64,000 bases of DNA, from the NCBI GenBank assembly GCA_964489445.1, contig CAZAYU010000002.1:77020-141019 (forward strand), in the 5' to 3' direction. This DNA is from an uncultured Planctomycetia bacterium (lineage in GTDB: Bacteria; Omnitrophota; Gorgyraeia; Duberdicusellales; 4484-171). Position numbers and translations under genes: made by a program. The notes under the pieces were generated by a model. It did no database searches. It saw only the letters and a list, made by a program, of their open reading frames with translations, and was not told the origin of the DNA. Position 1 is the first letter of the stretch. Each line of letters starts with the position of its first letter. This document shows, piece after piece, positions 1 through 24,909 of the stretch.

Positions 1-88
1 TAAAGATATAGAAAATGCTTTCACAGAGGATAATTCTTTAAAAAGAGTAAGTGTTATTCTCTCGACTCGGAAAAAACCAAGTAGTATT

Positions 89-3000
89 TTGTCACGGGTT
101 AACGGAAAAGAGGAAGAACATTTGCCTAGCTGGCAGGATAGGTTTTCTGCTCTCAAAGGGTTCTTGGAAAAAGAAGGTATCTCTCAGGATATTTGCATTG
201 CAGTTTCTTATGCTGTCTGTTCCAAGATTGTGGATTCTCGAAAATTAAAATATCGATTACGTTTTTTTCAAAAGTACGGATTCTTAACAGAAAAAGAATG
301 CCGTCTTTTGATTAAAAGAAAATACATTGATTGGGAAAGATTTTCTCAAAGGATAGCGGAAGAGTATAGAGTATTGATAAACTCTTCACAGAAGTTTACG
401 GAGAAACAAGTTAAACTTATTTTAAAAAGAGGGTTTTCTGAGCAAGCAGCATGTGATTTAAAAAATAAATATCGAAAGTATGGAATTACAAAGAGTGAGC
501 TTGTTCAGTCAATGTGTAATCAGGATCCGGAAAAATACTTAGGTAAATTAATCATGCCTCGCGCTAGAGCAGATGGGAATAGAATGATATTTCGAAGGCA
601 TCTGGAAGATGAAATAGGAGTATTTTTCCTTCCAGCGGAAAGAAACGAAATAATAGACGGATTATTAGAATTTATTACTGGGAGGAAATGGGAGCACAAT
701 GAAGTTTTCGTTCGTAAATTAAATAAATTAACCCAATGTAACACTATAACCTTAAAGCAGAAAAATATGCTACTGAATATTGGAAGATATGCTTCCGAAG
801 CGTTTACCAATCAATTTAAACCTAAAGATGTTGCTCAACGGATAAAACAAAATATGATTTTGTATTTGGATCCATCATTGCAGAATGGACTGGTTACTCC
901 CCGGCAAGCTTTATTTTTAGTAGTTAGGGGGTATTTATATCCGGAATTTAAAAGCATTATGAATGAATACTGCTTGACTAAAACTGAGTTGTTGGAGGTT
1001 ATTCATGGGTATAGCAATCCGGGAGAAATTTTGGAAAAACTAAGGCCACAAAGGATTAATTATTTGCATCGAAAAACAAAATTGCCTGAATATTTCATAA
1101 AAATAATATTGATTAAACGGGGCAGCAAGATTACAGATGGATATTTAGAGGATTTGCTTAAAGAAGCAAAATACCTAATTAAAACATACGCAATACCTGT
1201 ATACATTGCTTTGAATTGGTATATCCGAGGCAATAATGCACAAAGCTTTAAGCAAAGGGTAGTCGGTTTAAGCCGACAGGAAGGGCTTCCGATTAGGTTG
1301 ACTTATCACTTATTTTTTCAAAGGGAGCTAACACAGAAAGATATCAATCGAAATATTATTATGCTATCTGAATCCTGTGGGAGAATTCTTCAGGAGAAAA
1401 AGGTGGCATATCAAAAGATGCAGGAGTCGTTATCTGCTTTAGAAAAAGATATTTATCGGGATGTAAGTTTTGTTCAGGCCGTGATTATCCGAAAAAAAAT
1501 CGAACAATTAGTAAAAGCACGTCCGAATAATGAAATATTAAATGGCTTAAAAAAAGAATTTGGGGTTAAGTATCATATACTACAGGAATTAGTAGATTTA
1601 ATTTTTAATCAACTTAAAAATGATAATTTAAGTGAGGCGATTTATTCTGGGGCAAGAAATAAAGGAGTGTCTCTGGCGGTGTATAGAATAGTAGAAGCAA
1701 GAAAGGAAATAAAAAAAATTGCCAAGACTGCTAGCAAAGAAATAACTGATTTTCAAAATAATAATTTAATGTATTTATACCAAAAACGTAAAAAAGCCAG
1801 TGTGAGAGAAAATTCAGAATTGAAAAAATGTTTGTCTGAAAAGATTGTTCAAAGAATATCTGGGAAGCTTGGAGGAGTTTTAGAAGAAAGTGTAATTATA
1901 GAATTAGGAGAAAAGATTATTTCCGGATTTTTTAATACTAAAAATGGAAAAGTAAAAAATAAATTAGAGCGTTTTAGAGAAAATGGATCATTGACTTTGC
2001 AACAATGTGCGCTTGTTGAGTCACACAGGTGGCAGGTGTTTAGTCGGGAAAACTGGCTTGACCGATTATCGGATAATTTAGTATTTGATGTCTCTAGGCT
2101 TAAAAGAGAGTTTGATTTTTCTGATAGTTTGGTAATAAATATTATTCTTAAAGGATATTATTACTCTTGGATTTGCGAGTTATATAGGCAATACCCTCAT
2201 CTTAAAAAATCCTTTTTAGACAGAATGTTTCGTGCTGAATTTCCGGAAAAATATCTTTTATGTCATTGTGGGCCATTGGATAGAGAGGTTAAAGCTGCTC
2301 AAGTTTTTATGAAAGAGCTGACCAAAAGTACTGATTTTTCTCTACCGAAGCAGGTTGAGGAGCTGTTAAGTCAGGATTATACATATCGGCAGTTAGTAGT
2401 TTTGGTATTGAATGCCAGGGTTAACCATTCAGAGTCAAATATTAGTTTAGGTAAGCAAGCGGCTCGTTATTTTGTTCAAGCGCATCTTTCAATTGCTGAA
2501 GAAATTGCTAAGGAATATCGTTATCGGTATTGTAGCAGGCAATGTATTCAAGAGGGAACAACGGCTTTATACGAAGCCTTAAAAAGTTATACTCCGGATT
2601 ATCAAAGCGAAAACGGATTTCCGGAACATGCGCGTAAGTTTATAAAACAGCGATATGAACAAATATTAAAAATGACAAGGAAGGATTATCAAAACCAAAA
2701 TTACCATTCTGTGAGTATTGATGCGCCGGCATATGGTGATTCTAGCCGAATTACAAAGCAGGAGATATTGGGTGTTAATGACATAGCCTCTGGTTTTGGA
2801 AATAATCTTCATCAGCTTAATCCGGAAGATAACATTATTTTTTCTGAAAAAGCTCAAAATGGATCAATAAAGCAAAAAGAAGAAAGGGAAGACCTAAGGA
2901 AAAATATTTTTTCAGATGTTGCAAGAAAACTTTATCAGCAAAAAAATATTTCTTCTGCTTGGTTAGAAATTTTATTAAGTGAAATTAATCAATATTCCGG

Positions 3001-6000
3001 AGATTCGGAAGATCTTTCTCAGCAATTTAATGTCGACGTTGAGGAGGTCGAGAAATGCCTTAAAATTGGGTTAGCAAAAATAGGTGAGCATATTATTGCT
3101 CATCCAGAGTTGATTGCACATTTTTCTATTTCTGCTGTTTCAGAAGTTAAACAGAAAAAAGGAACTTTGCAGTATGAGGAAAAAAAGGGTTCTAGTTCAG
3201 CATTAAAGGTAGTTGAACATTTATGTTGCAATGAAGAATTTATTGAAATTACTAACTGTGCTTCTTATCGTCATTTACGTTCTCCGCCTAAAAAGATAGT
3301 TATCCCTGAATGCAGCTACAGTCTCGCCAGATTTTTTCGCTTGTCTTTTGGCAGGGCAAGCTCGCCAGTAAATCAAGACAAAAATATTGCTTTCAAATAT
3401 AATCAAAATAATCCGGAGTCTATCATCGCTGAAACTTTCCTTGCTCGAATGTACGGAAACATAAATCCTGATAGAAAGGCTAAGATACTCTGGCAGCTAT
3501 TATTAGGAGCGGGGATAATTCCTTTTTGGCAGACAGCAAAGATAATATCAAAAACTATTATTTTTATGGTTTGGGCTACTTTTTGTTTCAAGTGGAACCA
3601 AAAATACAGAGAGCAGTTTTTTAAGACAGTCAAGGAAGACCTTAGTTGCCGCTATAGTAAGACTGCGTATATCGGCAATCAGACGACCGCGTGTAGAGTA
3701 GATTTTAAAGAAAGAATACAGAATAGAAAAATTGTGGAAGAGTTTACTCAATGCATAAGAAAAATATTCTCCTCCGTTATATTTATCTGGTGTTTTACAA
3801 CATTTTCTTGTTTGATGAAATTTGTTGATACGCTTGATGGACGTGCTGTAATAGTGTATTGTTTTGGTCTTCCAGAAATGGTGTTGTTTTTTGTTATATT
3901 GCCTGCGGCTGCATATTTATTCCTGATTAATGTGATCTATAATATCGACGTAATAGTTAGAGATTTAGAAAAATCTTTAGCTATAGAAACATCTATTATT
4001 TCGAGAAAATCTTCTTCTAATTGCGATAACAGTTCTAGCTCGTCGATTGAACGTAGATATACATCAAGTTTAAGAGAAATTAGCCATATTGGTGAAATTA
4101 TCAGGGAGTTAATCCGAAAAGATCCCTTTGCGGCTTTTTCATTTAATAATGAAAAACTTTGGATGCAAATTGTTCCGGATAAGAGTAATTGTCTGCGGTA
4201 TGTAATTTATCCTGAGGTTGGAGAGGTGCGTAGGCTATTTTTTCTAAGGGCGTTAAACAAACCGGTCGGTGATCCCTTTGTCGCTCCTTCTGGATCGTTA
4301 GGCCAAATTATTTTTTTCCTGAATAATTCTATTGAAATAGAAAAATTAGCCAGTGGTATGTTTTTGGAGGTGCAATCAAACATATGGCTGCGGCGGATGA
4401 ATCCAGAAATGCGTAATCTCCTTTTGCGCTGGATTATTTCGGCAGTTCAGCATATTATTTCAGCCGCGCATAAAGAGGGAATTTACGATTTTTACGCTTC
4501 GACTCCAAAATTTATAAAGAGTATATATTTAAGAGACGGCATAAGACTGGACCAAGGAAATTTAAAGAAACACTATCAACGGCCGTTTAGGCGACAATGG
4601 CAGAAAAAGGATATAGAAGTTTTAGATAAATATGTTAACTATACAGATAGTAATATTGTTCCACTTTGGTACTACAACAGAGAAAGTCGTTTATTAAAAA
4701 GCAGTAGCTCAATAAGTATTATTTCTGGCAAAGAACCGGAACCAATATCGGCAGTAAAGATAAATACTAACCCATTGACATCTAGCCAACAGGTATACCT
4801 AGAGAATGCTGCTAAAGGAAGAAAAATTCCTAGTTATTACTTAAATGTTATTTTTGAAAAATTCCGCAAATTAGAATTGATTAGTTCAGAAAGAGAATCT
4901 TGGGATAGATGCAGGCCTATTGTTCGGCTAGAAGCATTAAGAGTAGCCATGGCGAACCATTGGATAAAGCCGGGTAATATTAGCTTTTTAGAAGAAGTTA
5001 TCCGAAACCCGTTATCTCCGAAACAGCAAGATATTTTAGAGTTAATTTTAGATTTAGAACTTGATGTTCGGAATTTTTCACGAACGTACCAGATATTAGC
5101 TGATAAATTTAAAATAACTGTAAATTCTGTGGCGAATAACCATGTCAGACAGATATACAAAAAATTAAAAGTTAATTCTGGTTTAATTAAATCTGGATGG
5201 GGCCTAGTTGAGGCAGCAAAAATAGCAGCAGAAAGTGGATATATAAAATATGATGTTTCTAAATATGAAAGATTTGTGCAGAAATATTCTAAAATAGAAT
5301 TAACTGTTGGAGAGAAAAAATGTTTGATAAAGCAGATTTTTGGTATCGATAGTGAATATGTAAGGTCGCGTGACGCAAAGTTGATGAATGCAATGAGTAG
5401 CTGTAACCGGAGAATACGCAACAAATTGGGCATTCGCAAGAAATGGAATCGAGGCGATAGCATGATGCCGGTAGCAGATTATGTTTTACGGCAAGATATG
5501 ATTTCTACTGAAGACATAGTTACAGTTGCCGTGAGCTTGCCGTACATTACCAAAATATTTAGTGTAGATTTCCTGAAAGTTTATTTTTCTAGAAAACATT
5601 CTGCCAGAGATATAAAGGAAGCTTTTAAAGTATTTTTACCCGGTAATGTCGAAAAAACGAAGAAAATTATTCTTTTTTATATTTGCAATGTAAAACAAAT
5701 TATATATCCACTAACGTCTGGATGTTTAGAAGCTTTAGAAGATGCCTTGAGAGTGAATTTACCGGCAACAGTAAAACAATTTGGGCCGACAGTGTTTTTT
5801 GGTTTATTCGGCGAGGGAGAAAAAGATCTCGGAGCATTGGTAAGAAAATTAATAAGTAAGCGCGTTCATGATTTTAATCCGGGAGATCTTTCTTGCAGGA
5901 AGGAAAAGCTTGCTAGAGTATCAATAAAAGAACCGGAAGAAGAACCAGAGGAAGAATTTAAAACCGCTAATTCCGCTAACGTTGAGGAAATCAAAATGTT

Positions 6001-9000
6001 AACTAAATTTTTTAGTCCAGAGGAATTTGACCCCAACCTTCTCTATAAGGTTGGCGAAAAAATATTAGGAAACGGTTTTCTTTTGCCTGTTTTGGAAGAG
6101 AAAATTGATTTTATAATGGGTTTGCTTTTAGATCGTAACCGAAGGCATGATTATGTTTATGCTTTTTTAATTTTAAAAAAGGCAATGGAGGACCATCCTC
6201 AAAGAACCGCAGAGTTGTTTATTCCGCATCTCTTTTCTAAACAGTTGCCAATTAATAATGACGGGCTACCGTTTATTGAAAAGTTATATAAAGAAAGAAA
6301 TGGCTGGTTTGATTATTTTATTCATAAGCTATGGCCATATTTATCACAACCGTTAAAAAATGATATAAGCCAATTACAGAATCACAAGTCTTTATCATCT
6401 ACGGGTGTTGATTATTGGGGCATGAGCAGCTCATCTATAAATTACAAAAATTATAACGATTATGTTTGCACAAACAAAGAAACTATTGTTGGTTCTTCAG
6501 CGATAAATAATCGGCCGGTTAAATCTTTTACCGAATTAAATAAAGAGGAAGTTTTTAAATTAGTACCTAAAGGGTCCCGGCGGCACACAAGGAATGTTAT
6601 TCGACTAGTTGGGCAAATAGGAAATGTAGTCGGTTTAGCTCAGAAAGAGTTATGTTGTCTAAAATATCTTGCTTGCGCACATGATATTGGCAAGGGAAAC
6701 AAAAATATTTCTCACCTTTTCTTATCTTCAGAAATTTGGGACAAAAATGCAAAAGAAAGAAGGCTAGCCAGAAAACATTCTCGGTATACAGTTGTTATAC
6801 TGGAAAAACATTTTGGCATTCAGCTTCCACATGGCGAACGGCAGATTATTTTTTGGCATAATCGTTTGAAGGCGATTAATTGGAAATGGGTATCTTCGCA
6901 GAATAAGTTATTTTGGTTGATTTTAATCATCGCTGATATTATTGATGGTAGCATTGATACTTCAAGAAAACATAAGGTTGGAAAAAATCTTAAATTTGAT
7001 CCGGCTATGACGCTAAAGCGAATAAGGATAGTGGTTGGTGATTTGCTATCTGCCGATGACAATGTTAAAAAAATATATAATGTAGTTGAACGTTTATGTT
7101 TCAATGAAGAATTTATCGAGACAGCCAACCGCGCTTCCTATCGTCATTTACGTTCTCCGCCTGAAGAAATAGCTATTCCCAAATGTGGTGATAGCGTTAG
7201 TAAATCTGTTTATTCGGGCTGGAAGAATGGAAAGGCTGTTTCTAGCTCTGCAGTGTTTAGAGGAGTAAATTATTCTGCCAGCAAGATAGATATTAAGGAA
7301 ATAAGTATACCTAATATCCGTAATCATCATTATCAAATAATACTTAAAAAAACTAATAATGGTAATTGGCCGGGAATATGCAAGGTTTGGGTTAATTCAA
7401 CCTCAGTAGGTGACCTTGAATATTGGGTGCGTGAAACTCTAGTAGTTCTTAGACGTTTTTATATTAAAAGGAAATATCGAGGGGAGGGTATAGGCCAAAC
7501 GGTTATGCATTTTATTGCTGATTTAGTGTGGGAGAAAAATATTCGTTTTAATACTAAGACATTACTGGGGATAAGCGCTGTTACTGATGCCGTTCTCGTG
7601 CGTACCTTCTGCAATGCTATTGAAAATATTGTTTACGGCTCATTAGACGATCCTAAATCGACAGACAAAGAAGATCTTTTATCTAAAGTAAATAGTGGAG
7701 GAGGATTAAATTTTAGAGGCGATCCGATTGGCTTAAGCGCTCTTTATCCTAAAGAAAAAGAATGGCCTATTTTTTTTGAAAGCGCATCTTCAGTTGTAAA
7801 TGCTGACTATTGTAGCTCTAGTTTGCCGGTTAGTATATCGGATGAATTAATCACAGAAATTAAAGTTTTACGCAGAAGGGATGAGCCAGGTTACTCTAAT
7901 TTTATGCAATTACTGGATAAGGCCAACAGTTATGATATTAAGGCTGCCATAGACAGGATTGAACCTTATTTAAGAAGTTATTTTATATTGTTATTATCTA
8001 AAAAAGATCCTGAAAAATTAATTTTAAAATCAATTTCTCCCATGGATATTCTCCCTCTTGAAAAGATTGCTGATATTTTATCGATAGATTCTAGCGCCTT
8101 CATGATAGCCCAGTCGGCAGATGAATACAAAAATAGTATTTCTTTATATATCCCGGGTGAAACTAAATTGGTTAAGATATTTATCAGGTCGCTTAGTATG
8201 TTGCCGATTACAATATCTCGGTTTGCAGACAATAGGGAGCCGCTACCGCCATATATTAATGAATTTTTAGGCCGGAAAGGCGTCAAGAGCTGCATAATAC
8301 ATGACGGCTATCGCACAAGAGTACAACTGTTTTATGGATTGACTTGGAGATTTTCTATAGATTATTTTGAACTTGATTCTTCTCTTTGGGGCAAAGGTAT
8401 CGGCGATATTTTGTATGTGAATCTTGAACGCTACGCAAAGGAATGCGGGTTTACTGTTATATCGGTTGAAGGAGGATGTCCGGTAGAGCCGAAAAGTGAG
8501 GTGTTTTTTGCTAGGCAGGGATTCTCAGAATCTTTTGCGATTAGAGATGAAGGCGGAAGAGAAAGCAATCCCCAAATGACATTTATTGTGTTTAAAAAAA
8601 TAATTTCTAGCGCATTTGCAGATAACTCTAGCTCTCCAATGGATAAAGAAGATTATAAGGATTTTGGTCAAAAACAAGGATCAAAAGAACAAGCCGCTAA
8701 TGAAAAAGAAGAAATTGAAAATGCTTTGAGAAAAACAAGAGTCAGGAATGAAGCTGCAAAGATTTTTGGTATCTCTCCTGCTCAATTTTACCGGAAAATT
8801 AAAAAACATGGCATTGATCTAAACACATTTTCGAAAAAAAAGGGACGGCTTTCTGATATTACAAAAGAAAAAATGGAGGAATTGATTATCAGACACAAAG
8901 GTTCTGTTGCCGCTATAGCTTATGAATTGAAGGTGTCTGGCACAGCGGTTTCTCTCTTATTAAAAAAATATGGACAAGCAGATTGGGCCAAGGAACAAAG

Positions 9001-12000
9001 AAAAAAATATGGCAAAATAATAAATAAAAAACGTTTTCAAATGATGATGTCTTCCTGGAAAAAGAATAGAAAAACTGCGGTAAGAGAAGTAACCAGAATT
9101 TGCTTTGGTGAAGAGAATATCAACGCGGATGATGAAATATTTTTTTGGGAAAAAGAAAATCGGATAAAAGTGACAAAAATATTGGATGCTGTAGTAAAGG
9201 ATATTATCGGAGAAGGGTTTCATGTGATACCCGAAATCAGGAGGAACAAATTTATTTTGGCTTGTGGCTTAAGAGAGTTATTGGTAAGCGCTAAAGCGGC
9301 TTCTTCCCGGGAACTATTAAAGGAAGCTGGATTGATTCCGGCTGGAAACTGTTTAGATGGCTTAGAAGTAAGTAGCTCTGCGTTGTTTAATTTTGGTTGG
9401 AGGTTGGCTTTACCGGTAAGTAGAGCGATTAATCATTATTCGCTTAAATGCTTTAGAGTAAAGCAGCCAAAAAGCAATTTAATAGTTATTGATGTGAAGA
9501 TAGGAAAGGAAAAAAAAGGATGCATAAAGTCATTAAGTAGCAAGCGTTTGATTTTGTCTGCCGGAGAAAGTTTGCCATTTAAGTCCTGTGAAATAATAGA
9601 TGTTAAAAGTATTGAATTTATCGAAAAAGATAGCCGGAAAAAATCCAGCTCTTCACTTAAAACAATAGGATTTGGTTCATCTGATTTATCGTTTGACAGG
9701 TGTCACAAAGAAGCACAAAGATTAATTAAGACTTTGCAATATAAAGGCATACCCTGGACAGATGCTTATATGCGGGTATTGCCGGAGGTAGAAAAGGTTA
9801 CGAAAAAATATCCGGATAAATGGTTTATATCAGCAATTAATTTGGGTATAGCAATTACAAAAGAAGGTCTTCTTCCTTGCCCAATATTATATTACGGTGT
9901 GGGGCTAGCAGTTATAAGCTCTAATGCAAGCTTTGACCAGTATAAACAAAATCTTAATTGTCTAAAATATTGGGCGGAAGAAATAAGCCGAATTGTTTGG
10001 AAAAATGTAAATGAGGAAGGTGAGAAATATAATTTTAGACAGATAAGCACAACAAAGAGTAAAAATATAATTTGGAGAAATACTGCTTATAGGAAAATAG
10101 ATGATTCGCTAAAAAGTATTGAAGTCAATGGAATAACCAGTTCAAGGCGTTTACGAACTGCGTTGGATGAGTCTTCTGGCTATTCAATAAATTGGCCTTC
10201 CAGTTGTCTAGTTACGTTTTGTAGTGATCAATCCGAGTATAAAAATTACATAATACGTTTTTTATCTAGATGTTTGGGTAATGGGCATTCGAAGAATGTA
10301 AATGTAAAGGAAAGATTGGAAGAGAATGTTTCAAGTTCATCGGTAGAGATAGTATTTAATTCACCAGATTGGGAGGCCATTAGGAATACAGAGCTTTTTT
10401 CTGTAGTTGTGCCTATTTCCGGTCGTACCGATGATTACAATATATTTTATCAAAAGACATATGATTGGCTATTATATTTTTTCCGATTATCTTTGTTTAA
10501 AGAGCAAATCGCAGATTTATTGTCATATACTTTGGCGGAGATATTTCACGATGCAGTAAGAAAAAATTTAGATTTGCGTGCAGCGTATTCACTTTCCGGA
10601 TTTTTTGTTTTGGATAATAGTACAGAATGCGCACCGGTATATTTAAATGCGGAATTTATTCAAAAAGCAAATAGTCAGACTGATTATCAATGGTTGCTTT
10701 CAACTCAGAAAGAATATGCAAAACAAGGTCCGGATTATTTATTAAGTGAAAAGATTCAAAAAAACAGACAAGATATTGATGATGATTTTAGGTATGGATT
10801 AGCGCAATTCGCTAGATTAATTTATGAGTTGCCTTGTTGTCTAAAGTATGCGGTAAGCTCTATAGCGCCTTTTAAAACTACAGTAGAATTTACTGTCAAA
10901 ATTATGAATTTACCTGATTTTGTAGAAAAAGATGTTCCAATTTGTACATTGAAAAAAGAAAAATTGCAAAAAGCAAAAGTGTTACTTACGAGCGAATTAT
11001 CAAAATGGAAGAATCAGTTAGACCTAACTTTAGCGTTTAGCGGGCAAGAAAATCGTGAGCATATTTTTTTCCGTAAAGGTTTAATGCAGTTATCAATGAA
11101 AAATCTTATTAGTTTACGGACATTTGAAGAAATTAGAGAGGTATTATTAAGTGCGCATAAGATTATTTTTAAAATACATGAAAATATCATAACTTTACCA
11201 TCTTTATCAGGAAAAGAAAAACTTAAAATTTCTTCAGGACGATTAGCAAATATAAACTTTAACTGTGCATTTTTAAAGCAATGGCTTGGAGAACTTTTTA
11301 AGGAAATAGAGGTTATTGAAAATATTGGTCATCATTCAAACGGAAAAGCTAAAGTAAGAACACTTTTGCCTAAAAAAGTCAGTTCTTCAATTATGAAAGC
11401 AGAGAAAGAAGCTATTACCTCACTGGCGGTTATTTCTTGTTTGACTAGAGGAGAAGAAGAATTATCTTTGTTGGATACCTCCTTTTATTTCCCGCAGTAC
11501 CTGCGAAAAAAAACAAGCGAATTTGTCTATGGTTCAAATAATCCGGTTTCTTCTTCGGCGGTTAAAAGTAATGAATATTTATTTGGCCTCAAAATCATCA
11601 GCATGAAAATTATTTACTCAGAGAACCCGGAAAGTGTTTTAGAACAAATTCTACAGCTTAGCATGCGTTTTGCGGTTGAAGACGGAGAAATGCTGATGAC
11701 AAAAGAGTATATAAAAGATGAGATCGAAAATGATTCCAAAGATTTCAATTTAGCCTTTGTTGATGCCGCCGGAGTAATTATTGGATATCTTTTGACTCAA
11801 GAATCTCCGCGTCATCCCAATGCCTTGTGGTTTACTTTTATGGGAGTAGAGAAGGAACGCAGGAATAAAGGTTTTGCAAAGATGATGATGAAAATCGCCG
11901 CCTTGAAGGCTGTAGAATATAATATAGAAAGGATAAAATTAGGAGTAAGAAAAGAGAATAAAATAGCTATCGCTATGTATGAAAGATGCGGGTTTCAAAG

Positions 12001-15000
12001 AGATCCAATAACTTATTTTAAAAGCGAAAAAGAGGAAATTAATTTCCAAGATTATTCGGAAACGATGAGTAAAAAATATGGTTTTAAAATGAGCTCTCAA
12101 GATAAAATCACAATTGACGGAGTTGGCTATGAATTTGTGGATTTCTCTGCTGTGCCGTCTGAGATAGTAAAAAGTATAATAAACACTTCGTCGTTAGAAT
12201 TAAACGAGGAATTTAAGGAGTCGCGTATTATTGCCTTTGGTTTAAATTATAACCCTAGATTAACCAGCTTCCTGCGGGTTATAAGCACATTAATTGAAGT
12301 GTATGGGCGCTTTAAGGAAAAAGACATCAGTTTACGAATCGTTCGCCTCTGGGATGAACAGGAGTTGAATTTTGAGAAACCGATAGAGTGCTATACTTTT
12401 CAAATTTCTCATAGTGAGCAAATTAAATTGGTTATCGAGAGCAAAACAAGATCTAAGGAAGCAGTTGTTGAGGCAATGAATATCGTTGCCTGTCTTCTGA
12501 CGCAACCGGAATTTGAAAACGGATTAAACTGTCGTAATGCTCCTGAAAAACAAAAATTCGATGAGCTCTTCCATAAATTTAGAATAATTTTGTCTTTGGA
12601 AGGATCGTCGCCTGATTCTCCTCTTTCTGTTGCTACCGCTGCCTCACCGAAGAGCACTAGCTCGCCTGTTAATAAAAATTGGCGCCAGAAACTTATAAAT
12701 GCCGCAGATGATTTAAGAGTATTAAAATTGGAAGGTATTATTTTAAGCCGGCTTAGTGATTTCGAAAGAACAATACTGCAAAAGCGTACGGAATTTCCTC
12801 CGGTAGATAGAAAAAATGTGGCTGCTGAACTAGGGTATCCAGTATGGAAGGTAGCCAATATTGAGCGAATGCTTTCGGTAAAGGTTCCGGCACTGTTAAA
12901 ATTATGGAAACATGCCGATGCAGTCTTAATAGCATTATTCAACGGCTGTAGGGTAAATATTAATTATATCGGTATAAAAAATATAGATTTGCTCAGCCGG
13001 ATGATTGAACCTGCTGTTCGTTTCAGTAAGAAAGAGACCGAATTAATGAAATTTTTGTGTCAGATTATCGAATACAGAGAACAAAAAAGCAGCGAAATTA
13101 ATAGTCTTATAGTAATCAAAAGAGAAATGTCTTTAGGAATTTTTCAAGTTAAACCATCTACGTGGAGAATATTTGTTCAGAACTTCCGTGGTACAGATGA
13201 TCCTCTTTCTTCATCATCTCTGGTTTTTAGTTCCAGTTTGTCGACGGAAATAGAAGAAGTAATTGCACAGACATTAACGTCTGTCGCCTCGCCGGTGAGT
13301 ATAAGTGAAAAAAGAATCAGGAAAGTAAGAATATTTTTAAAAGAGCACCTTAATCCTAACATCATCGGTATTATAGTACACGGCTCTACAGCTAGAGGTG
13401 ATGCCTTAGAAGAAAGCGATTTTGATTTTGGTTTAATTAAAATAAACGGCGATTTTACTTATGAATTGACTCAGGCGGACCTAGATTTTCACAGAGGGCT
13501 TTTAAGATGTTTGGCACCTGTGAAGGTAGATAACCAGCTTAAACCTCTAATTTGGAAAGGAGAGGAGGCTTTTAATAAATTTGTAAGTTTATATTTTTTG
13601 GAACGCAAATACGCTACTGCCATTGAAGATGTACCGTGGGTTAATAAGCTGGAAGCTTTTATTAAAAGTTACCGCATAATTGCGAGAAACAAAGAGCTGG
13701 AAAATATAATTTATCAAAGAATAGAGGATGCTAGAAAATCGATTATGAAATCTGTACGAAATAAAGAAAATAAAACAGCTTTTACCAGCTCGTCAATAGA
13801 TGGTAGCAAGAGGCAAAGGATTAATAATCTGGCTGAATATAAGAGGCTAATGAAATTGAATGCACAGTTGTTAGTACGAAGTAACACTGTTTCTTCGAGC
13901 TTTCCGGCGGAAAAAGATGGAGAGGTAGAACGCTCTTTGATAAGTGTGGATTCTTTTATGGATTTTACAGGGCCGGTTTATTATCCTGCCAGCGAATTGG
14001 ATTTAGAAAGTATGGTTTGGTTGGCGAGATTATTTCCAAAACTTAAGATGTTGATGTATGTCGATGTTTTGGATCCGGATGAAATGAATGCAGCAACTGT
14101 TTTTAAACCAGAGGAAGATGACGGTGAAGGTGTTAGTGGAGCATTTCGATATTATGGGCCCGACGATATGTCATTATTGCAGCGTCAGATGCAAAATAAA
14201 CTATCTCAATTTCAATATCATAATGAGGCTATTATTGATTACAAAAATACTGGGGTAGATATTATTTCGGTTGAAGACATGGAATTGCTACTTAAGGTAT
14301 CTTTTAAAAGAAACATCAAAAAAGCCCCGTGGCTAAATAGCAGAGTTATAGAAATTAATTTTTTAGTTTGTGATATTTTTGATTACAAAAAAATATTTAA
14401 CGTAATTTATGTTAACTATCCCGGATATTGTGGTGGCTTAGCAAGAGTAGAAGAATTTTGGGTATTAATGCGTAAGCAGATTTCTGAGCAGGGATGTTTG
14501 TTAGAGACAAATATACATCGTAAAACACCTAAAACTAGAGTTTTTAAGAAGAAACTTTTTTCTAAGACGGACCAGATAAAATTAACCCAATATCCGCGCA
14601 TAGATGTTTTACGACCGATAAAAATTATCTCTGCCTCGCCGCTAAACTACTCGAACTTAGCATTGGGTTCAGTAAGAGAATCCAGGGTTAGCTCGACAAT
14701 AAGTCATTGTTCCAAAGTTGTTTCGATAAGAAAATTAACGCTTGCTGATTTTGATGTGTCTAATTACTCATCTTCTTCTGTATCCGCAAGTTCTAATTTA
14801 GTGACAAGTAGTATTCTCGGTAATTTATACAATATGAGAAACATGTTCATTGCGTATCAGGATATTCTTAGTAGTTCCGGGAAGATGATTCAAGCGTGGG
14901 TTAATGAGTCAATAGCTGCTATGTATAAGCCGGATATTAGGTCAAAAGAGATCAGAAGAGCAAAAAAGATTACAGAGCTAATGCCTGATCCTCAAAGAAT

Positions 15001-16069: not shown

Positions 16070-16381
16070 ATGAATATTCAAGGATTGAAGAATCGCAGGT
16101 TATTTGAAAGAACTCCTTGCGCTCTTCTGGGAGACTACAACAATAGCAATCATAAGGCAGTAGGAACCAAGTGCTATGACATATCTACAACTGGTGCCGG
16201 ATTATTTCTGTTTGAACGTCTAGCTAAGGGATTTGAAATGCAGCTTAACCTGATTACTAAAAAAATAGCGCCTTTATCTTTAGCCGGAAAAATTTGCTGG
16301 TGCCGAAAGGAAGCCACTGGCTATCGGGCTGGAATCGCTTTTAATAAAAGTTTAAATCTTCCCTTAGAGGCACTTGCCTAA
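16070..16381 (+). CDS. PilZ-domain protein, a putative c-di-GMP receptor.
   Basis: RRLFER (RxxxR) and DISTTGAGL (DxSxxG) motifs. A strong AAGGAGG Shine-Dalgarno lies 7 nt upstream. The start is 79 nt downstream of the giant ORF stop. Confidence 0.6.
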   Translation: MNIQGLKNRRLFERTPCALLGDYNNSNHKAVGTKCYDISTTGAGLFLFERLAKGFEMQLNLITKKIAPLSLAGKICWCRKEATGYRAGIAFNKSLNLPLEALA

Positions 16382-16409: not shown

Positions 16410-17381
16410 ATGTGTCGGTTTATATTTAGAAGGTTGTTGTTTTTATTACCGCTTTTATTGGGGGTAACATTTCTTACATTCTTCTTGATCAAGATTGCTC
16501 CGGGTGATTTTCTCGATAGTCTAAGACTAAATCCGCAAATTTCTCCGGATACTGTAAAAATATACGAACAAAAATTTCACCTGGATAAACCGTTTGCTAT
16601 TCAATATTTAGTCTGGCTAAAAAATGTGCTTCAAGGTGATTTTGGCTATTCTTTTTCCCACAAAACAGAAGTATTCAGAGTAATAACCTCACGCTTGTTT
16701 AATACTTTTATTCTTTCGTTGTCTGCATTAATTTTTACTTGGATATTTGTTATTCCTTTGGGAGTGGTCTCTGCACTAAAGAAAGGAAAATTTATTGATA
16801 AGTTTCTTTCTTATTTTTCTTATTTAGGAATATCTGTTCCCTCTTTCCTTTTAGCGTTTATCTTTCTTTATTTAGCTACGTTTACCGGCTGGATTCCTTT
16901 AGGCGGAATGCGTTCAGTTAGATTTGATGAATTTACTTTTTTGGGTAAGATCTTAGATTTAGGAAAACATCTAATAATTCCGACTTTAGTTCTATCCATT
17001 GGTAGCATTTGTTCTTTGCAACGAGTATTACGTGCTAACATGTTGGAAGTATTAGGCTCACCGTATATTTTAGGAGCCAAAGCAAGAGGAATTTCTAAGT
17101 GGCGGATTGTTTATGTACATGCACTAAAAAATGCAGTAAATCCGCTAATTACTATTTTTGGGTATCAATTTTCAGCTTTATTAAGTGGAGCAGCGTTGGT
17201 AGAAATTATTTTAGGCTGGCCGGGTTTAGGTACGGTAATGTTGGAAGCGGTTCAGTCTCAAGACTTGTATCTTGTTATGGGGGCGATACTTATGGGGGGA
17301 GTTTTACTTGTTTTTGGAAATTTATTAGCCGATATTTTATTAGGAATTTTTGATCCGCGGATAAGACACGAGAAAAGCTAA
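16410..17381 (+). CDS. ABC transporter permease of the OppB/DppB family.
   Basis: Six transmembrane segments with the BPD_transp_1 layout. N-terminal segment MCRFIFRRLLFLLPLLLGVTFLTFFL is typical of OppB. Confidence 0.8.
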   Translation: MCRFIFRRLLFLLPLLLGVTFLTFFLIKIAPGDFLDSLRLNPQISPDTVKIYEQKFHLDKPFAIQYLVWLKNVLQGDFGYSFSHKTEVFRVITSRLFNTFILSLSALIFTWIFVIPLGVVSALKKGKFIDKFLSYFSYLGISVPSFLLAFIFLYLATFTGWIPLGGMRSVRFDEFTFLGKILDLGKHLIIPTLVLSIGSICSLQRVLRANMLEVLGSPYILGAKARGISKWRIVYVHALKNAVNPLITIFGYQFSALLSGAALVEIILGWPGLGTVMLEAVQSQDLYLVMGAILMGGVLLVFGNLLADILLGIFDPRIRHEKS

Positions 17382-17399
17382 TTTTAGAGTAGCCATGGG

Positions 17400-17560
17400 G
17401 CAATAAATAGGATTAAGCGGTAAGGATTAAGGGGTAGCGAGAAGCAAAGTGCATCGAGCAGAGAGCATGGAGAAAGAAGAGGGTAAAAATTAGAAGGGAG
17501 AAGTTTTCGAGGGGTGATGGGACGACAGGCGAAAGGACGACAGAAAATAGGAAAGTTTAT
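17400..17560. repeat. GA-rich intergenic element, copy C. It contains the tandem short repeats AGGATTAAG (x2) and GGACGACAG (x2).
   Basis: Shares TAGGATTAAG and GATGGGACGACAG / GATGGACGATAG with the copy at 23600..23720. Confidence 0.55.
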
Positions 17561-17602
17561 AGTTGATAGTCTAGAGTCTATAGAAAGAGTAAGTAAATAA
17601 AA

Positions 17603-17629
17603 ATCTGTTTTAACTTAGTTAAAACAGAT
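17603..17629 (+). promoter_or_regulatory. Perfect 11-bp stem with a 5-nt loop (ATCTGTTTTAA cttag TTAAAACAGAT). It lies 12 nt upstream of the oppC-like start, between oppB and oppC.
   Basis: Inverted repeat read directly. It abuts the AGGT Shine-Dalgarno of the downstream gene. Confidence 0.45.
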
Positions 17630-17640
17630 AGGTAAACAGA

Positions 17641-18696
17641 ATGAATATTTGGAAAAAAATTTTTAAGAGTAAAGCCGGAGCAGTTTCTTTGGTTACTTTA
17701 TCTGTGCTTTATCTGGGGATAATTTTTGCTGCTTTCTTTGCGCCTTACAACTATGATCAGGATGATGTTCTGAATTCTTACTCTCCGCCGACAAAAATTC
17801 ATTTATTTAATTTTTCTGCCAAGCAGTTTACACCGTTTGTTTACGGAAAAAAATGCGTGGTTAATAAATATTATCAGCGTATTTATTCTGAAGATAAGAG
17901 CAAAATATATCCAGTAAAGTTTTTTACTAAAGGTTTCAAATATAAGCTATTCGGGATTTGGAATTGCAATCGGCATTTGTTTGGAACGGATGAGGGTAAA
18001 ATTTATTTGTTGGGTGCAGATTTAAGAGGCCGAGATTTATTTTCTCGGATTCTTTACGGAGGAAGGATATCGCTTTCTATAGTGGTTGTTGCTGGTTTGA
18101 TTTCTTTTTCCATTGGACTGTTGGTCGGAGGAATTTCTGGTTACTTTGGCGGTAAAATTGATAATTTTACTATGCGTGTTTGTGAAATAATCATGATGAT
18201 TCCTTCTTTTTATTTATTATTAGTATTACGTTCTTCTTTTCCGGTAAACTGGGGATCGGCACAAGTATATTTTATGGTAGTAATAATTCTTTCATTGATT
18301 GGCTGGGCTTCTTTAGCCCGGACGATTCGGGGGATGGCGCTTTCTTTGCGGGAGAATGATTTTGTTTACGCGGCAAAATCTGCCGGATTAGGAAATTTTA
18401 AAATAATCATTAAGCATATTTTACCGCATACACTTTCGTATTCGCTAGTTGCATTAGTATTAAGTATTCCTTCTTATATTTTAGCAGAAGCGGCTCTTAG
18501 CCTTATTGGATTGGGAATCCAAGAGCCGCAAGCAAGCTGGGGAAATTTATTGTCTTCGGCTTTAGGAATAGTAAATATTCGTCTTTATCCCTGGATATTA
18601 ATTCCCGGAATATTTATTATAATTACCGGGATGTGTTTTTATATTTTAGGCGATACATTACGTGATATTTTTGATCCGAAAAGAAAGATTCTATGA
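17641..18696 (+). CDS. ABC transporter permease of the OppC/DppC family.
   Basis: N-terminal transmembrane segment, a long periplasmic loop, then a permease core. Its stop overlaps the start of the next gene. Confidence 0.8.
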   Translation: MNIWKKIFKSKAGAVSLVTLSVLYLGIIFAAFFAPYNYDQDDVLNSYSPPTKIHLFNFSAKQFTPFVYGKKCVVNKYYQRIYSEDKSKIYPVKFFTKGFKYKLFGIWNCNRHLFGTDEGKIYLLGADLRGRDLFSRILYGGRISLSIVVVAGLISFSIGLLVGGISGYFGGKIDNFTMRVCEIIMMIPSFYLLLVLRSSFPVNWGSAQVYFMVVIILSLIGWASLARTIRGMALSLRENDFVYAAKSAGLGNFKIIIKHILPHTLSYSLVALVLSIPSYILAEAALSLIGLGIQEPQASWGNLLSSALGIVNIRLYPWILIPGIFIIITGMCFYILGDTLRDIFDPKRKIL

Positions 18697-19478
18697 TTTT
18701 AGAAATTAACAATTTAAGTGTCGCATACAATAGCGAAAAAATATTAGTTTCTGCCCTAAATAACATCAACCTTTACTTAGAGCAGGGTGAAATATTAAGT
18801 GTGGTTGGAGAATCAGGCTCAGGTAAAAGTACGCTTGCTTTCTCATTATTAGATTTATTGCCACAGGATGCGCAAAGAAAAGGTGAGGCTTACTTTAAAG
18901 GAGAAAATATTTTTTGTTTTAAAGACAAAGAAATGGAAAATTTACGCGGGAAACGAATCGGCCTTATATTTCAAGAACCGTCGGTAACTTTTAATCCGGT
19001 ATTAAGTATTAGCTATCAGTTCCAGGAGATTTTAAAAACTCGGATGGGGATAAATAGTAAAGAGGAAAGAATAGAAATTATGGTTGATCTTTTTAAAAAA
19101 GTACATTTGGATGGTTGGAAGCGAATATTGAGTAGTTATCCGCACCAATTAAGCGGAGGTGAACTTCAACGGATTGCAATCGCGATGGCTGTTTCTTTTA
19201 AGCCGGATATTTTGCTTTGCGATGAGCCAACTAGCTCTTTAGATGTGACTATTGAGAGTCAAATTATTCATTTATTTAAAGAGTTGAAGGAAACATTGGG
19301 CTTAACTTTGTTGTTTATTACGCATAATCTCGAATTGGCAAGAGTGTTATCGGATCGGGTGGCTGTTTTACATCAGGGTTGTTTGCGGGAAGTAAATAAT
19401 AAACAAAAGTTGTTTGATTACCCCCAAGACAAATACACAAAACAACTTTTATCTTCTTTCCAAGAGTTAGAAGGGTGA
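18693..19478 (+). CDS. Oligopeptide/dipeptide ABC transporter ATPase, OppD-like.
   Basis: Walker A GESGSGKST, the LSGGELQR signature, and Walker B ILLCDEPTSSLD. Confidence 0.85.
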   Translation: MILEINNLSVAYNSEKILVSALNNINLYLEQGEILSVVGESGSGKSTLAFSLLDLLPQDAQRKGEAYFKGENIFCFKDKEMENLRGKRIGLIFQEPSVTFNPVLSISYQFQEILKTRMGINSKEERIEIMVDLFKKVHLDGWKRILSSYPHQLSGGELQRIAIAMAVSFKPDILLCDEPTSSLDVTIESQIIHLFKELKETLGLTLLFITHNLELARVLSDRVAVLHQGCLREVNNKQKLFDYPQDKYTKQLLSSFQELEG

Positions 19479-19488
19479 TTTCTAATTC

Positions 19489-20442
19489 TTGAAAAGTGGA
19501 AAGGTAGATAAATATTTATGGGATGCAAGAATGATTAATAGCATTTATAAGTTATTGGAAGTAAAAGACTTAAGTGTGCAATTTTCCCAGGGTAAAAAAA
19601 ATGTTAAAGCAGTAGACGGGGTGAATTTTTTTCTTCAAAAAGGAGTTATTACCGCTTTAGCCGGTGAGAGTGGATGTGGGAAAACTACACTGGCAAAAAC
19701 AATTTTAAAATTTCATAAACCGGCTGGAGGAAAGATATACCTAAATAGTAGAGACATTACATTAAAAAGTAATGAGCGGTATTTAAGAAAAAATATTCAA
19801 GTTGTTTTTCAAAATCCGTTTTCTAGCCTTGATTTCCGGTATTCTATTTTTTCCTCTCTTTATGAATCTTTATCCGTATTTAAAAAGATAAAAAAAGATC
19901 AAGCCGAAGAAATTATTGTAAAATCGTTAAACGATGTAGAATTAGATAAAGGGATAATGCTTCGCTATCCGCAGCAATTAAGCGGAGGACAGGTACAAAG
20001 AGTGTGTATTGCCCGTGCTTTAATCAACAAGCCTTCTTTAGTCATTCTAGACGAGCCGACATCAAGCTTAGATGTAACTACTGCTTCCAAAATTGTTAGG
20101 TTGCTTGCGAAAATACAACAGGATTCAGGCGTTACTTTTTTATTTATTTCACATAACTTGCGGCTTTTAAAGAAAGTTTCTGATTTTTGTTTTATTATGT
20201 ATGCGGGTAAGGTTGTAGAGTTTGGTCCTAAGCAGCTGGTCTATGATAATCCGCTTCATCCTTATACTAAACTTTTGATGGAAGCCTCTTACTATAGATT
20301 AAAACGTTTTAAAGATTCAAAGGTTTCTTTAAATGGATGTTCTTTTTCTTCGCGCTGCACCTACCAAGAGGATAAATGCTCAAAGGAATCCAACTTCAAG
20401 GAGGTAGAGCCAGGTCATTTTGTCTCTTGCTGTCTTTTTTAA
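19489..20442 (+). CDS. Oligopeptide/dipeptide ABC transporter ATPase, OppF-like, with a Cys-rich C-terminal extension. The start may be the internal ATG near 19531.
   Basis: Walker A GESGCGKTT, LSGGQVQR, ILDEPTSSLD. The C-terminus contains CSFSSRCTYQEDKCS...CC. Confidence 0.8.
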   Translation: MKSGKVDKYLWDARMINSIYKLLEVKDLSVQFSQGKKNVKAVDGVNFFLQKGVITALAGESGCGKTTLAKTILKFHKPAGGKIYLNSRDITLKSNERYLRKNIQVVFQNPFSSLDFRYSIFSSLYESLSVFKKIKKDQAEEIIVKSLNDVELDKGIMLRYPQQLSGGQVQRVCIARALINKPSLVILDEPTSSLDVTTASKIVRLLAKIQQDSGVTFLFISHNLRLLKKVSDFCFIMYAGKVVEFGPKQLVYDNPLHPYTKLLMEASYYRLKRFKDSKVSLNGCSFSSRCTYQEDKCSKESNFKEVEPGHFVSCCLF

Positions 20443-24842: not shown

Positions 24843-24909
24843 TTATTTATTTTGTTTCTTGGGAACATACTTAGTGTTTTTTTGCTTAATAGACTTATTT
24901 AAAAGAGTA

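What the first reader, a model, noticed from the sequence alone, without database searches (positions are those of the whole stretch)
3208..7186. A 35-aa motif is duplicated 3.9 kb apart within the giant ORF (about 80% nucleotide identity)
nt 3208-3313 encode VVEHLCCNEEFIEITNCASYRHLRSPPKKIVIPEC. nt 7082-7186 encode VVERLCFNEEFIETANRASYRHLRSPPEEIAIPKC. The flanks are not obviously similar, so this is a conserved short module rather than a large segmental duplication. It could be a recurrent processing or cleavage site of a polyprotein, a docking motif, or a redox Cys motif (C...C...C spacing conserved). Such high nucleotide identity inside one gene could also drive recombination or deletion.
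Basis: seen in the sequence. Interest (0 to 1): 0.6.

Follow-up and report, generated by a model that had tools for sequence, protein, structure and literature searches.

The report
Duplicated 35-residue motif, giant Omnitrophota gene
A 35-codon stretch really does occur twice, 3.9 kb apart, inside a giant gene (at least 19,512 codons) of an uncultured Omnitrophota bacterium, but it looks like an ordinary lineage-specific internal duplication of a small orphan peptide module, and nothing supports it being a cleavage site, a redox site or an RNA element.

Summary
The repeat is real. Both lie in the frame of an ORF that is open from window base 2 to the stop at 15991. The DNA is 82% identical over 107 nt, 26 of 35 residues match, the spacing is 3873 nt, and the edges are sharp. 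It is the only significant internal repeat in the 5329 codons visible here. In other assemblies the gene is called at 19,512 aa or more and is cut by contig ends. Its only detectable homologue is a "Candidatus Omnitrophica" MAG protein.

The motif is an orphan: no convincing relative turned up in any protein or DNA collection searched. Conservation sits in the peptide (dN/dS about 0.18). I found no RNA structure, no shared promoter and no DGR-type mismatch pattern. The one orthologous fragment available lacks the motif at the copy-1 site. There, two Ser-rich junctions sit 8 residues apart.

Both copies end 15-18 residues before a recurrent Ser-rich junction, SS[SAP][VILFM] (22 observed, 2 expected), that separates single-domain modules.

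Best reading: a small helical-hairpin plus Pro-rich-tail module was copied once within the gene and retained. Its function, possibly a docking or capping element, is only inferred. The upstream 14,000 or more codons could not be fetched. Interest is modest.

The parts
2..15991 (+). 3' part (5329 codons plus stop) of a giant ORF that runs off the 5' end of the window. The same gene is called at 19,512 aa or more and 19,280 aa or more in two other assemblies, cut by a contig end each time.
3209..3313 (+). Motif copy 1 (giant-ORF aa 1070-1104): VVEHLCCNEEFIEITNCASYRHLRSPPKKIVIPEC. It forms most of a roughly 52-aa mini-module between two Ser junctions.
7082..7186 (+). Motif copy 2 (aa 2361-2395): VVERLCFNEEFIETANRASYRHLRSPPEEIAIPKC. 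It is the C-terminal extension of the module that carries a weak HD-domain match.
3266..3289 (+). 24-nt core identical in both copies (encodes YRHLRSPP), copy 1.
7139..7162 (+). 24-nt core identical in both copies, copy 2.
3191..3202 (+). Ser junction (SSSA; next residue L) just upstream of copy 1. Two residues (L, K) separate it from the motif.
3359..3370 (+). Ser junction (SSPV), 15 residues after the end of copy 1.
7241..7255 (+). Ser junction (SSSAV), 18 residues after the end of copy 2.
6581..6823 (+). Weak Pfam HD-domain match (aa 2194-2274, profile positions 3-73 of 116, E 0.0034, below the gathering score). Copy 2 starts 87 residues after it.
3761..3937 (+). Hydrophobic, probably transmembrane segments (aa 1254-1312) lying between the two copies.
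   Evidence: Kyte-Doolittle scan, 19-residue window

Best explanation
The two copies are paralogous instances of a small, lineage-specific peptide module inside a giant multi-module Omnitrophota protein. A 35-codon segment was copied once, in frame, to a second place in the same gene. The most probable direction is from the C-terminal extension of the HD-type module (copy 2) into a linker where two Ser-rich junctions lay side by side (the copy-1 site). Since then the peptide, not the nucleic acid, has been kept. The module is predicted to be a helical hairpin (VVExLCxNEEFIExxNxAS) followed by an extended Pro-containing tail (YRHLRSPPxxIxIPxC). In both places it ends 15-18 residues before the next Ser-rich junction, so it sits at the C-terminal edge of a module. 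The function I consider most likely is a shared contact or docking element, or a module cap, that binds the same partner at two places. That function is inferred, not shown. Shown: the repeat exists, it is unique, its edges are sharp, its substitution pattern fits a constrained peptide, it is absent from one orthologue at the copy-1 site, and it has no RNA structure. Inferred: the direction of copying and the function.
For: The repeat is real and far beyond chance. The substitutions fit a constrained peptide. Of 19 nt differences, 10 are synonymous and 9 non-synonymous over 22.5 and 82.5 sites, giving dS 0.67, dN 0.12 and dN/dS 0.18. The probability of 9 or fewer non-synonymous changes under neutrality is 0.003. 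There is no nucleic-acid signal. RNA folding z-scores are +0.1 to +0.95 on both strands, and the consensus fold has no meaningful covariation. Rfam finds nothing in the window. The two copies share no promoter-like site. The orthologous fragment from a Candidatus Omnitrophica MAG (55-65% aa identity) reads ...EVSSSSIGNMSPSAHSSSPVE... at the copy-1 site: two junctions 8 residues apart and no motif. That fits a later insertion in the window's lineage. Copy 1 is AT-shifted relative to copy 2: 13 of the 17 transitions are A or T in copy 1 and G or C in copy 2, and GC is 33% vs 41% against a 35% genome. That is what a derived copy drifting toward genome composition would look like. Position relative to module boundaries: SS[SAP][VILFM] occurs 22 times against 2.0 expected, and all six Pfam domain hits lie inside junction-delimited modules. 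AlphaFold2 on the 62-aa copy-1 segment with a two-sequence alignment gives helix 4-15, helix 18-29, coil 30-47 and helix 48-56, mean pLDDT 63.
Against: The selection test rests on 19 differences. If copy 2 is constrained and copy 1 is drifting neutrally (average omega about 0.55), the data are only marginally unlikely (p = 0.06). The polarity is inferred from composition and from a single orthologue fragment whose contig ends 37 residues after the site. That contig also carries frameshifts. No orthologue covering the copy-2 site was found. No partner, structure or homologue supports a docking role. The AlphaFold model of the HD module is useless (pLDDT 36), and the small model matches nothing in the PDB. 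At least 14,000 upstream codons of the gene could not be examined, so the true copy number is unknown.
Confidence: 0.55

Rival explanations
1. Neutral relic. A stray 105-nt in-frame duplication landed in a tolerant linker, has no function of its own, and is simply not yet erased. The only constraint is on copy 2, as part of its native module.
For: Copy 1 sits between two junctions that are adjacent in the orthologue, which is the kind of place where an insertion would be tolerated. Copy 1 is AT-shifted and would carry most of the changes if copy 2 is ancestral. A model with one neutral copy is not firmly rejected (p = 0.06). The motif has no relatives anywhere.
Against: dS of 0.67 shows the copies are not young, yet 26 of 35 residues, the whole YRHLRSPP core and both flanking Cys are retained. 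The pooled dN/dS is 0.18.
Confidence: 0.25
2. Processing or sorting tag of a polyprotein. The giant protein is cut at or near the Ser-rich junctions, and the motif is a C-terminal recognition, docking or cleavage element of two of the released products.
For: Both copies end 15-18 residues before a junction. The junction motif is strongly enriched and delimits single-domain modules. Post-translational cleavage of Omnitrophota giant proteins has been proposed, with cleavage points unknown (bioRxiv 10.1101/2023.11.21.568195).
Against: There are only 2 motif copies for 22 junctions in the visible part. Pfam finds no protease domain in the visible 5329 aa. The motif is absent at the orthologous copy-1 site although the junctions there are conserved. 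There is no experimental evidence for cleavage.
Confidence: 0.08
3. Nucleic-acid-level element. The repeat acts as DNA or RNA: a structured RNA, an internal promoter, a DGR template/variable repeat pair, or direct repeats bounding an inserted 3.9-kb cassette or promoting deletion.
For: A 24-nt run is perfectly identical, including several four-fold degenerate sites. The copies are direct repeats in the same orientation, an in-frame 3873 nt apart.
Against: RNA folds no better than shuffles on either strand. There is no Rfam match. A weak promoter-like site appears in copy 1 only. A 24-nt identical run among 19 random differences has p = 0.08. Mismatches are not confined to adenines of one copy: 5 of 19 in copy 1 and 3 of 19 in copy 2, so it is not DGR-like. 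GC content between the copies matches the surroundings. I saw no integrase or reverse transcriptase among the Pfam hits of the genes scanned. Four assemblies show no variant across copy 2.
Confidence: 0.05
4. Visible tip of a larger, ancient domain duplication whose remainder has diverged beyond recognition.
For: The 15-18 residue tails between the motif and the next junction are marginally similar (nt p = 0.04-0.09, aa p = 0.02, largely driven by the junction itself).
Against: There is no similarity in 100 or 250 aa on either side. The DNA is still 82% identical inside the motif while the flanks are at background, a step too sharp for uniform ancient divergence. The upstream contexts differ: an HD-type module versus a region with no domain hits.
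Confidence: 0.04

Closest known systems
Internal repeats in Omnitrophota giant proteins (West-Roberts et al. 2023, bioRxiv 10.1101/2023.11.21.568195; 2026 preprint 10.64898/2026.06.07.730766, 'multi-enzyme' class and 'Module 1' regulatory domain set)
   Same: The host gene fits. It is at least 19,512 aa, its only homologue is labelled Candidatus Omnitrophica, it has a few TM segments, and HD, GNAT, HTH and nucleotidyltransferase domains tile it with none dominating. Having some element repeated within the polypeptide is reported as the rule: 65% of Pfam-positive long proteins.
   Different: The repeats described there are recognisable Pfam domains, usually in tandem and diverged at the DNA level. 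This one is a 35-residue orphan with no Pfam, PDB or database relative. It is dispersed (1291 codons apart), has only two copies in the visible part, and is still 82% identical in DNA.
Docking domains of modular megasynthases (PKS/NRPS), recalled from general knowledge
   Same: Short (about 20-40 residue), mostly helical elements at the ends of modules that mediate specific contacts. This is the kind of role I infer for the motif.
   Different: There is no sequence or structural relationship and no megasynthase domains are present. Docking domains sit at the true termini of separate polypeptides, and here cleavage is unproven. This is an analogy only, not a membership claim.
Ser-rich or polyserine inter-domain linkers of modular bacterial proteins (general knowledge)
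   Same: The SS[SAP][VILFM] junctions that bracket the motif behave like inter-domain linkers. They are enriched 11-fold and no Pfam domain spans one.
   Different: They are very short (3-5 Ser) and are followed by a conserved small residue and then a hydrophobic residue. That is more motif-like than a flexible polyserine run. They are conserved in type in the orthologue.
Diversity-generating retroelement template/variable repeat pairs
   Same: Two direct repeats of about 100 nt, around 80-90% identical, a few kb apart, with one at the C-terminal end of a protein module.
   Different: The mismatches are not adenine-specific. Both copies are coding and in frame. I saw no reverse transcriptase among the Pfam hits of the genes scanned.

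Membership tests
Omnitrophota giant gene (multi-enzyme / regulatory-domain class) | Single ORF of tens of thousands of codons | tested here: met
   The gene is called at 19,512 aa and 19,280 aa in two assemblies, each cut by a contig end. The window holds the last 5329 codons with no stop.
Omnitrophota giant gene (multi-enzyme / regulatory-domain class) | Genome belongs to phylum Omnitrophota | tested here: inconclusive
   The only homologue of giant aa 1-1200 among 5.8 billion proteins is 'MAG: hypothetical protein HQ547_05405 [Candidatus Omnitrophica bacterium]' (56% identity, E 3e-164). No rRNA or marker-gene phylogeny could be run, and the genome was not found among the GTDB species representatives by motif.
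Omnitrophota giant gene (multi-enzyme / regulatory-domain class) | Many different enzyme or regulatory Pfam domains tile the protein, none dominating | tested here: met
   HD (weak), three GNAT-type, HTH_8 and NTP_transf_2, each in a separate module. This matches 'Module 1' of the 2026 preprint.
Polyprotein cleavage or processing site | The site recurs at the boundaries between mature products | tested here: not met
   Only 2 copies in 5329 aa, against 22 Ser-rich junctions.
Polyprotein cleavage or processing site | A cognate protease is encoded in cis or nearby | tested here: inconclusive
   Pfam finds no protease domain in the visible part of the giant ORF. The 14,000 or more upstream codons were not available.
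Polyprotein cleavage or processing site | Mature N- or C-termini map to the site | not testable with these tools
   This needs (meta)proteomics.
Redox or metal-binding Cys motif (CxxC, ZAS HxxxCxxC) | Conserved closely spaced Cys/His ligands | tested here: not met
   Only C6 and C35 are shared. C7, C17 and H4 of copy 1 are F, R and R in copy 2. There is no CxxC.
DGR template/variable repeat | Mismatches confined to adenines of the template copy | tested here: not met
   5 of 19 mismatched positions are A in copy 1 and 3 of 19 are A in copy 2. 17 of the 19 are transitions, of all kinds.
Structured RNA element or known RNA family | Stable, conserved secondary structure, or an Rfam match | tested here: not met
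   z-scores +0.13 to +0.95. The consensus fold is -6.75 kcal/mol, with 2 of 15 pairs showing a double change in a trivial 3-bp hairpin. No Rfam match.
Ordinary domain duplication (repeat of a folded domain) | Similarity extends over a domain-sized region (about 80 aa or more) | tested here: not met
   Similarity is confined to 35-41 aa and the flanks are at the shuffle level.
HD phosphohydrolase domain (is copy 2 part of it?) | The motif lies inside the Pfam HD profile match | tested here: not met
   The HD match covers aa 2194-2274 (profile 3-73 of 116, E 0.0034, below the gathering score). The motif starts at aa 2361. The NCBIfam and PDB sequence searches of the module gave only non-significant matches: the PDB alignments overlapped the motif at E about 0.3, and the NCBIfam matches lay near the module's N-terminus, outside the motif.

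The most novel reading that the evidence does not exclude
The giant protein is a true bacterial polyprotein or 'beads-on-a-string' assembly line. The conserved SS[SAP][VILFM] junctions would be its processing or hinge sites, and the 35-residue motif would be a C-terminal docking tag that brings two different released or tethered modules (the aa 1-1064 region and the HD-type enzyme) to the same partner. The unseen 5' three-quarters of the gene would then carry further copies.
Probability: 0.07. Interest if true: 0.75.

Novelty: new member of a known kind. Interest (0 to 1): 0.27.

Why it matters
On its own it matters little. Internal repeats are common in giant bacterial proteins, and this one has no demonstrable special role. 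Its value is as a marker. It shows that small in-frame cassettes can be copied between linker positions of an Omnitrophota giant gene, which bears on how such genes grow. It also drew attention to the Ser-rich junction motif that partitions the protein into single-domain modules. Whether Omnitrophota giant proteins act whole or are cut into pieces is an open question, and cleavage points are explicitly unknown (10.1101/2023.11.21.568195). The junction motif, more than the 35-residue repeat, gives a concrete site to test by proteomics.

Tried and rejected
**Searches for relatives of the motif**
- Word-indexed search of 5.8 billion proteins with the two-copy alignment: no candidates.
- Full HMMER scan of 1.84 billion representatives: one hit, P0012, a low-complexity repeat protein (ASFKHVVSPPEE x4). 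I judge it spurious.
- GTDB species genomes by peptide patterns and by a degenerate DNA pattern: one chance hit in a Clostridia MAG.
- JGI metagenome contigs: none. That collection evidently does not hold this organism's contigs.
- IMG/VR, phage and plasmid collections: nothing significant.
- PDB by sequence and NCBIfam on the HD module plus motif: only E about 0.3 noise.

**Search for orthologues**
- The query aa 1-1200 gave one fragment, P0011. The query aa 1060-2760 gave none.
- A metagenome scan with a window/orthologue alignment gave none.

**Attempts to reach the unseen 5' part of the gene**
- The look-up of encoding contigs is limited to 10 kb flanks and 5000-aa products.
- Exact look-up of the C-terminal fragments (4732, 1683 and 976 aa) to reach their clusters: not in the collection.

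**Structure**
- AlphaFold2 of the 256-aa HD module without an alignment: pLDDT 36, unusable.
- The 62-aa model reached pLDDT 63, but Foldseek against the PDB gave nothing.

**Ideas rejected**
- RNA structure.
- Shared internal promoter.
- DGR.
- Internal translation starts after junctions. The codon after the junction is not consistently a start codon.
- Special Ser codon usage or a DNA-level signal at junctions.
- EF-P-type polyproline pausing as a special feature. There are 4 PP in 5329 aa against 5.8 expected.
- A third weak copy at 10638-10664 (repeat finder D2). My estimate puts it at chance level, and the HMM does not see it.
- My eyeballed impression of a sigma-70-like region upstream of copy 1. 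Pfam did not confirm it.
- Similarity of the orthologue's post-junction tail to any part of the window protein: within the null.


Full report
**1. Observation**

Copy 1 is one base off: 3208-3313 gives stops, and the in-frame peptide VVEHLCCNEEFIEITNCASYRHLRSPPKKIVIPEC is encoded by 3209-3313. Both copies lie in the frame of an ORF that is open from window base 2 to the stop at 15991.

The repeat finder reports 3206-3312 vs 7079-7185: 107 nt, 82% identity, spacing 3873 nt = 1291 codons. A 24-nt core is identical in both copies and occurs nowhere else in the window, with 0 expected. A chunked self-BLASTP shows this is the only strong internal repeat in the 5329 visible residues (E 3e-14). An HMM of the two copies finds nothing else in six frames of the 64 kb.

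Identity drops to background immediately outside the 35 codons. Flanks of 100-250 aa are no more similar than shuffles. The 15-18-residue tails running to the next Ser junction are only marginally similar, and that is driven by the junction itself. The 'C...C...C' detail is wrong, because only C6 and C35 are shared.

**2. What the host gene is**

- The neighbours are ordinary bacterial housekeeping genes: an Opp-type ABC transporter, MetH, class II and class I aminoacyl-tRNA synthetase genes, McsB-like, ClpC-like, MlaE, a RadA-like ATPase and a PAS/GAF histidine kinase.
- Exact-protein look-ups place the locus on metagenome contigs from several JGI, ENA and Logan samples, all 100% identical to the window where they overlap.
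- In those assemblies the ORF is called at 19,512 aa and 19,280 aa. My arithmetic on the reported coordinates shows each is cut by a contig end, so the gene is at least 58.5 kb and the window holds only its last 27%.
- One of the samples (3300023253) is cited in a paper on Ace Lake, Antarctica (PMC9716671).
- The only homologue of the first 1200 visible residues among 5.8 billion proteins is a 1460-aa fragment annotated 'Candidatus Omnitrophica bacterium' (56% identity, E 3e-164).
- Pfam finds only a weak HD match, three GNAT-type domains, an HTH_8 and a nucleotidyltransferase. There are a few hydrophobic segments at aa 1254-1312.
- This matches published descriptions of Omnitrophota giant genes, in particular the multi-enzyme class and the regulatory 'Module 1' domain set (GNAT, HD and others) of the 2026 preprint. 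It also fits West-Roberts et al., who raise the unanswered question of whether such proteins are cleaved.

**3. Context of the two copies**

The visible protein is punctuated by a short Ser-rich motif, SS[SAP][VILFM].

- It occurs 22 times between aa 1065 and 4924, against 2.0 expected from shuffles (maximum 8 in 2000).
- It occurs only 8 times in 14,461 aa of the other window ORFs.
- Every Pfam hit lies inside one junction-delimited segment.
- The same motif type (ASSPV, TSSPI, SSSSAV, SSSSI, GSSAI) occurs in the orthologue.
- Ser codon usage at the junctions is unremarkable.

Copy 1 starts three residues after one junction (SSSA-LK-VVEH...) and ends 15 residues before the next (…GRA-SSPV). 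It therefore forms most of a 52-residue mini-module. Copy 2 is the C-terminal extension of the HD-type module. It starts 87 residues after the Pfam HD match and ends 18 residues before the next junction. Both copies thus sit at the C-terminal edge of a module.

**4. What is conserved**

- Of 19 nucleotide differences, 10 are synonymous and 9 non-synonymous (dS 0.67, dN 0.12, dN/dS 0.18).
- Neutrality of both copies is rejected (p = 0.003). A model with one neutral and one constrained copy is only marginally disfavoured (p = 0.06).
- The 24-nt identical run is not significant given 19 differences (p = 0.08).
- RNA folding of either strand of either copy is no better than shuffles (z +0.1 to +0.95). 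The consensus fold is weak, and Rfam finds nothing.
- A weak promoter-like match exists in copy 1 only.
- Mismatches are not adenine-specific, so this is not a DGR template/variable pair.
- Seventeen of the 19 differences are transitions. Thirteen of those have A or T in copy 1 and G or C in copy 2 (33% vs 41% GC, in a 35% GC genome). This is consistent with copy 1 being the derived copy drifting toward genome composition. That is an inference, since no outgroup exists for copy 2.

**5. Comparative evidence**

The motif is an orphan.

- No candidates in the word-indexed protein search.
- Only a spurious low-complexity hit in a full HMMER scan of 1.84 billion representatives.
- Nothing in GTDB genomes except a chance hit.
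- Nothing in JGI metagenome contigs, IMG/VR, phage or plasmid collections.
- Nothing significant in the PDB or NCBIfam.

The single orthologous contig (L016, GCA_013203355.1) aligns at 55-65% identity up to the copy-1 site. There it reads ...EYQEVSSSSIGNMSPSAHSSSPVEFHILNF...: the two junctions are 8 residues apart, with no recognisable motif. The contig ends 37 residues later and has frameshifts at A-runs, so this is one imperfect witness. No orthologue of the copy-2 region could be found.

**6. Structure**

AlphaFold2 on the HD module without an alignment failed (pLDDT 36). On the 62-residue copy-1 segment with the two copies aligned it gave a moderate model (pLDDT 63): two helices covering SSSALKVVEHLC and EEFIEITNCASY, an extended RHLRSPPKKIVIPECSYS segment, and a short helix. 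Foldseek against the PDB found nothing. I treat this as a secondary-structure hint only.

**7. Interpretation**

The best-supported account is a one-off, in-frame, intragenic copy of a 35-codon peptide module. It probably went from the end of the HD-type module into a double-junction linker, after the split from the nearest sampled relative, and was then retained at the protein level. A shared contact, docking or capping role is plausible because both copies sit at module C-termini, but this is inferred.

The rivals, in order of weight:
- a functionless relic tolerated in a linker, which is not excluded;
- a polyprotein processing or sorting tag, which is weakly supported because the motif occurs twice against 22 junctions, is missing in the orthologue, and has no visible protease;
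- a nucleic-acid-level element or cassette boundary, for which the tests were negative;
- the tip of a larger ancient domain duplication, which the sharp step in identity and the dissimilar flanks argue against.

**8. Limits**

At least 14,000 upstream codons of the gene could not be fetched with the tools, so the total copy number is unknown. There is no strain variation in the available assemblies, no reads, and no proteomics.

**9. Verdict**

This is a real but ordinary feature: a new orphan repeat inside a known kind of gene. The more interesting by-product is the Ser-rich junction motif, which offers concrete candidate hinge or processing sites for a class of proteins whose processing is an open question.

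Noticed in passing
window 3191-14782 (giant ORF aa 1065-4927); also L016 about 100-135 and P0011: A short Ser-rich junction motif, SS[SAP][VILFM], recurs 22 times against 2.0 expected from shuffles, and only 8 times in 14,461 aa of the other window ORFs. It cuts the giant protein into segments of roughly 20-575 aa, each holding at most one Pfam domain. The same motif type occurs in the Omnitrophica orthologue. These are candidate inter-module hinges or processing sites.
   Followed up: partly
window 2-15991, extending upstream of the window: The ORF is only the last 5329 codons of a gene called at 19,512 aa or more (JGI 3300031697 Ga0307929_1000036) and 19,280 aa or more (ENA ERZ27315904 k141_200380), both cut by contig ends. 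In ERZ27315617 k141_159262 the gene is instead called at 6616 aa with its start inside the contig, which I could not explain.
   Followed up: partly
L016 4545-4556 and about 5900-5915: The orthologous gene in GCA_013203355.1 is split into 1460-aa, 449-aa and 115-aa ORFs by frame changes near short A-runs (one located at the A6 run at 4550-4555, the other only approximately). These could be assembly errors or real frameshifts. The reading frame also continues upstream of the annotated GTG start of P0011.
   Followed up: partly
window 3209-3313 vs 7082-7186: 17 of the 19 differences between the copies are transitions. 13 of these have A or T in copy 1 and G or C in copy 2 (GC 33% vs 41%). This suggests directional decay of copy 1 toward genome composition.
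   Followed up: partly
window 16070-16381 and 16410-20442: A small PilZ-domain gene and an Opp-type peptide ABC transporter (two permeases, two ATPases) lie directly downstream of the giant gene on the same strand.
   Followed up: no
window 1-64000: Nearly all ORFs are on the + strand, and GC skew is strongly positive (about +0.1 to +0.3) across the whole 64 kb at about 35% GC. There are no tRNA genes and no Rfam matches in the window.
   Followed up: no
window about 14771-15988 (last module of the giant ORF): A CX3CX2C string (CIDPCQFC), typical of radical SAM enzymes, occurs in the last module. Pfam Radical_SAM was not detected at E < 0.1.
   Followed up: no
window 10638-10664: A 27-nt stretch is 78% identical to the start of the motif (it encodes YLNAEFIQKAN, compared with LCxNEEFIExxN). 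My estimate puts it at chance level and the motif HMM does not detect it.
   Followed up: yes
window 23892-24842 and 24685-25701: Two ORFs with no Pfam match at E <= 1e-5 in my scan overlap by about 160 nt as listed. In other assemblies the first one carries a PF26696 (PTL_trimer) hit, and the second is called shorter (263-275 aa).
   Followed up: no
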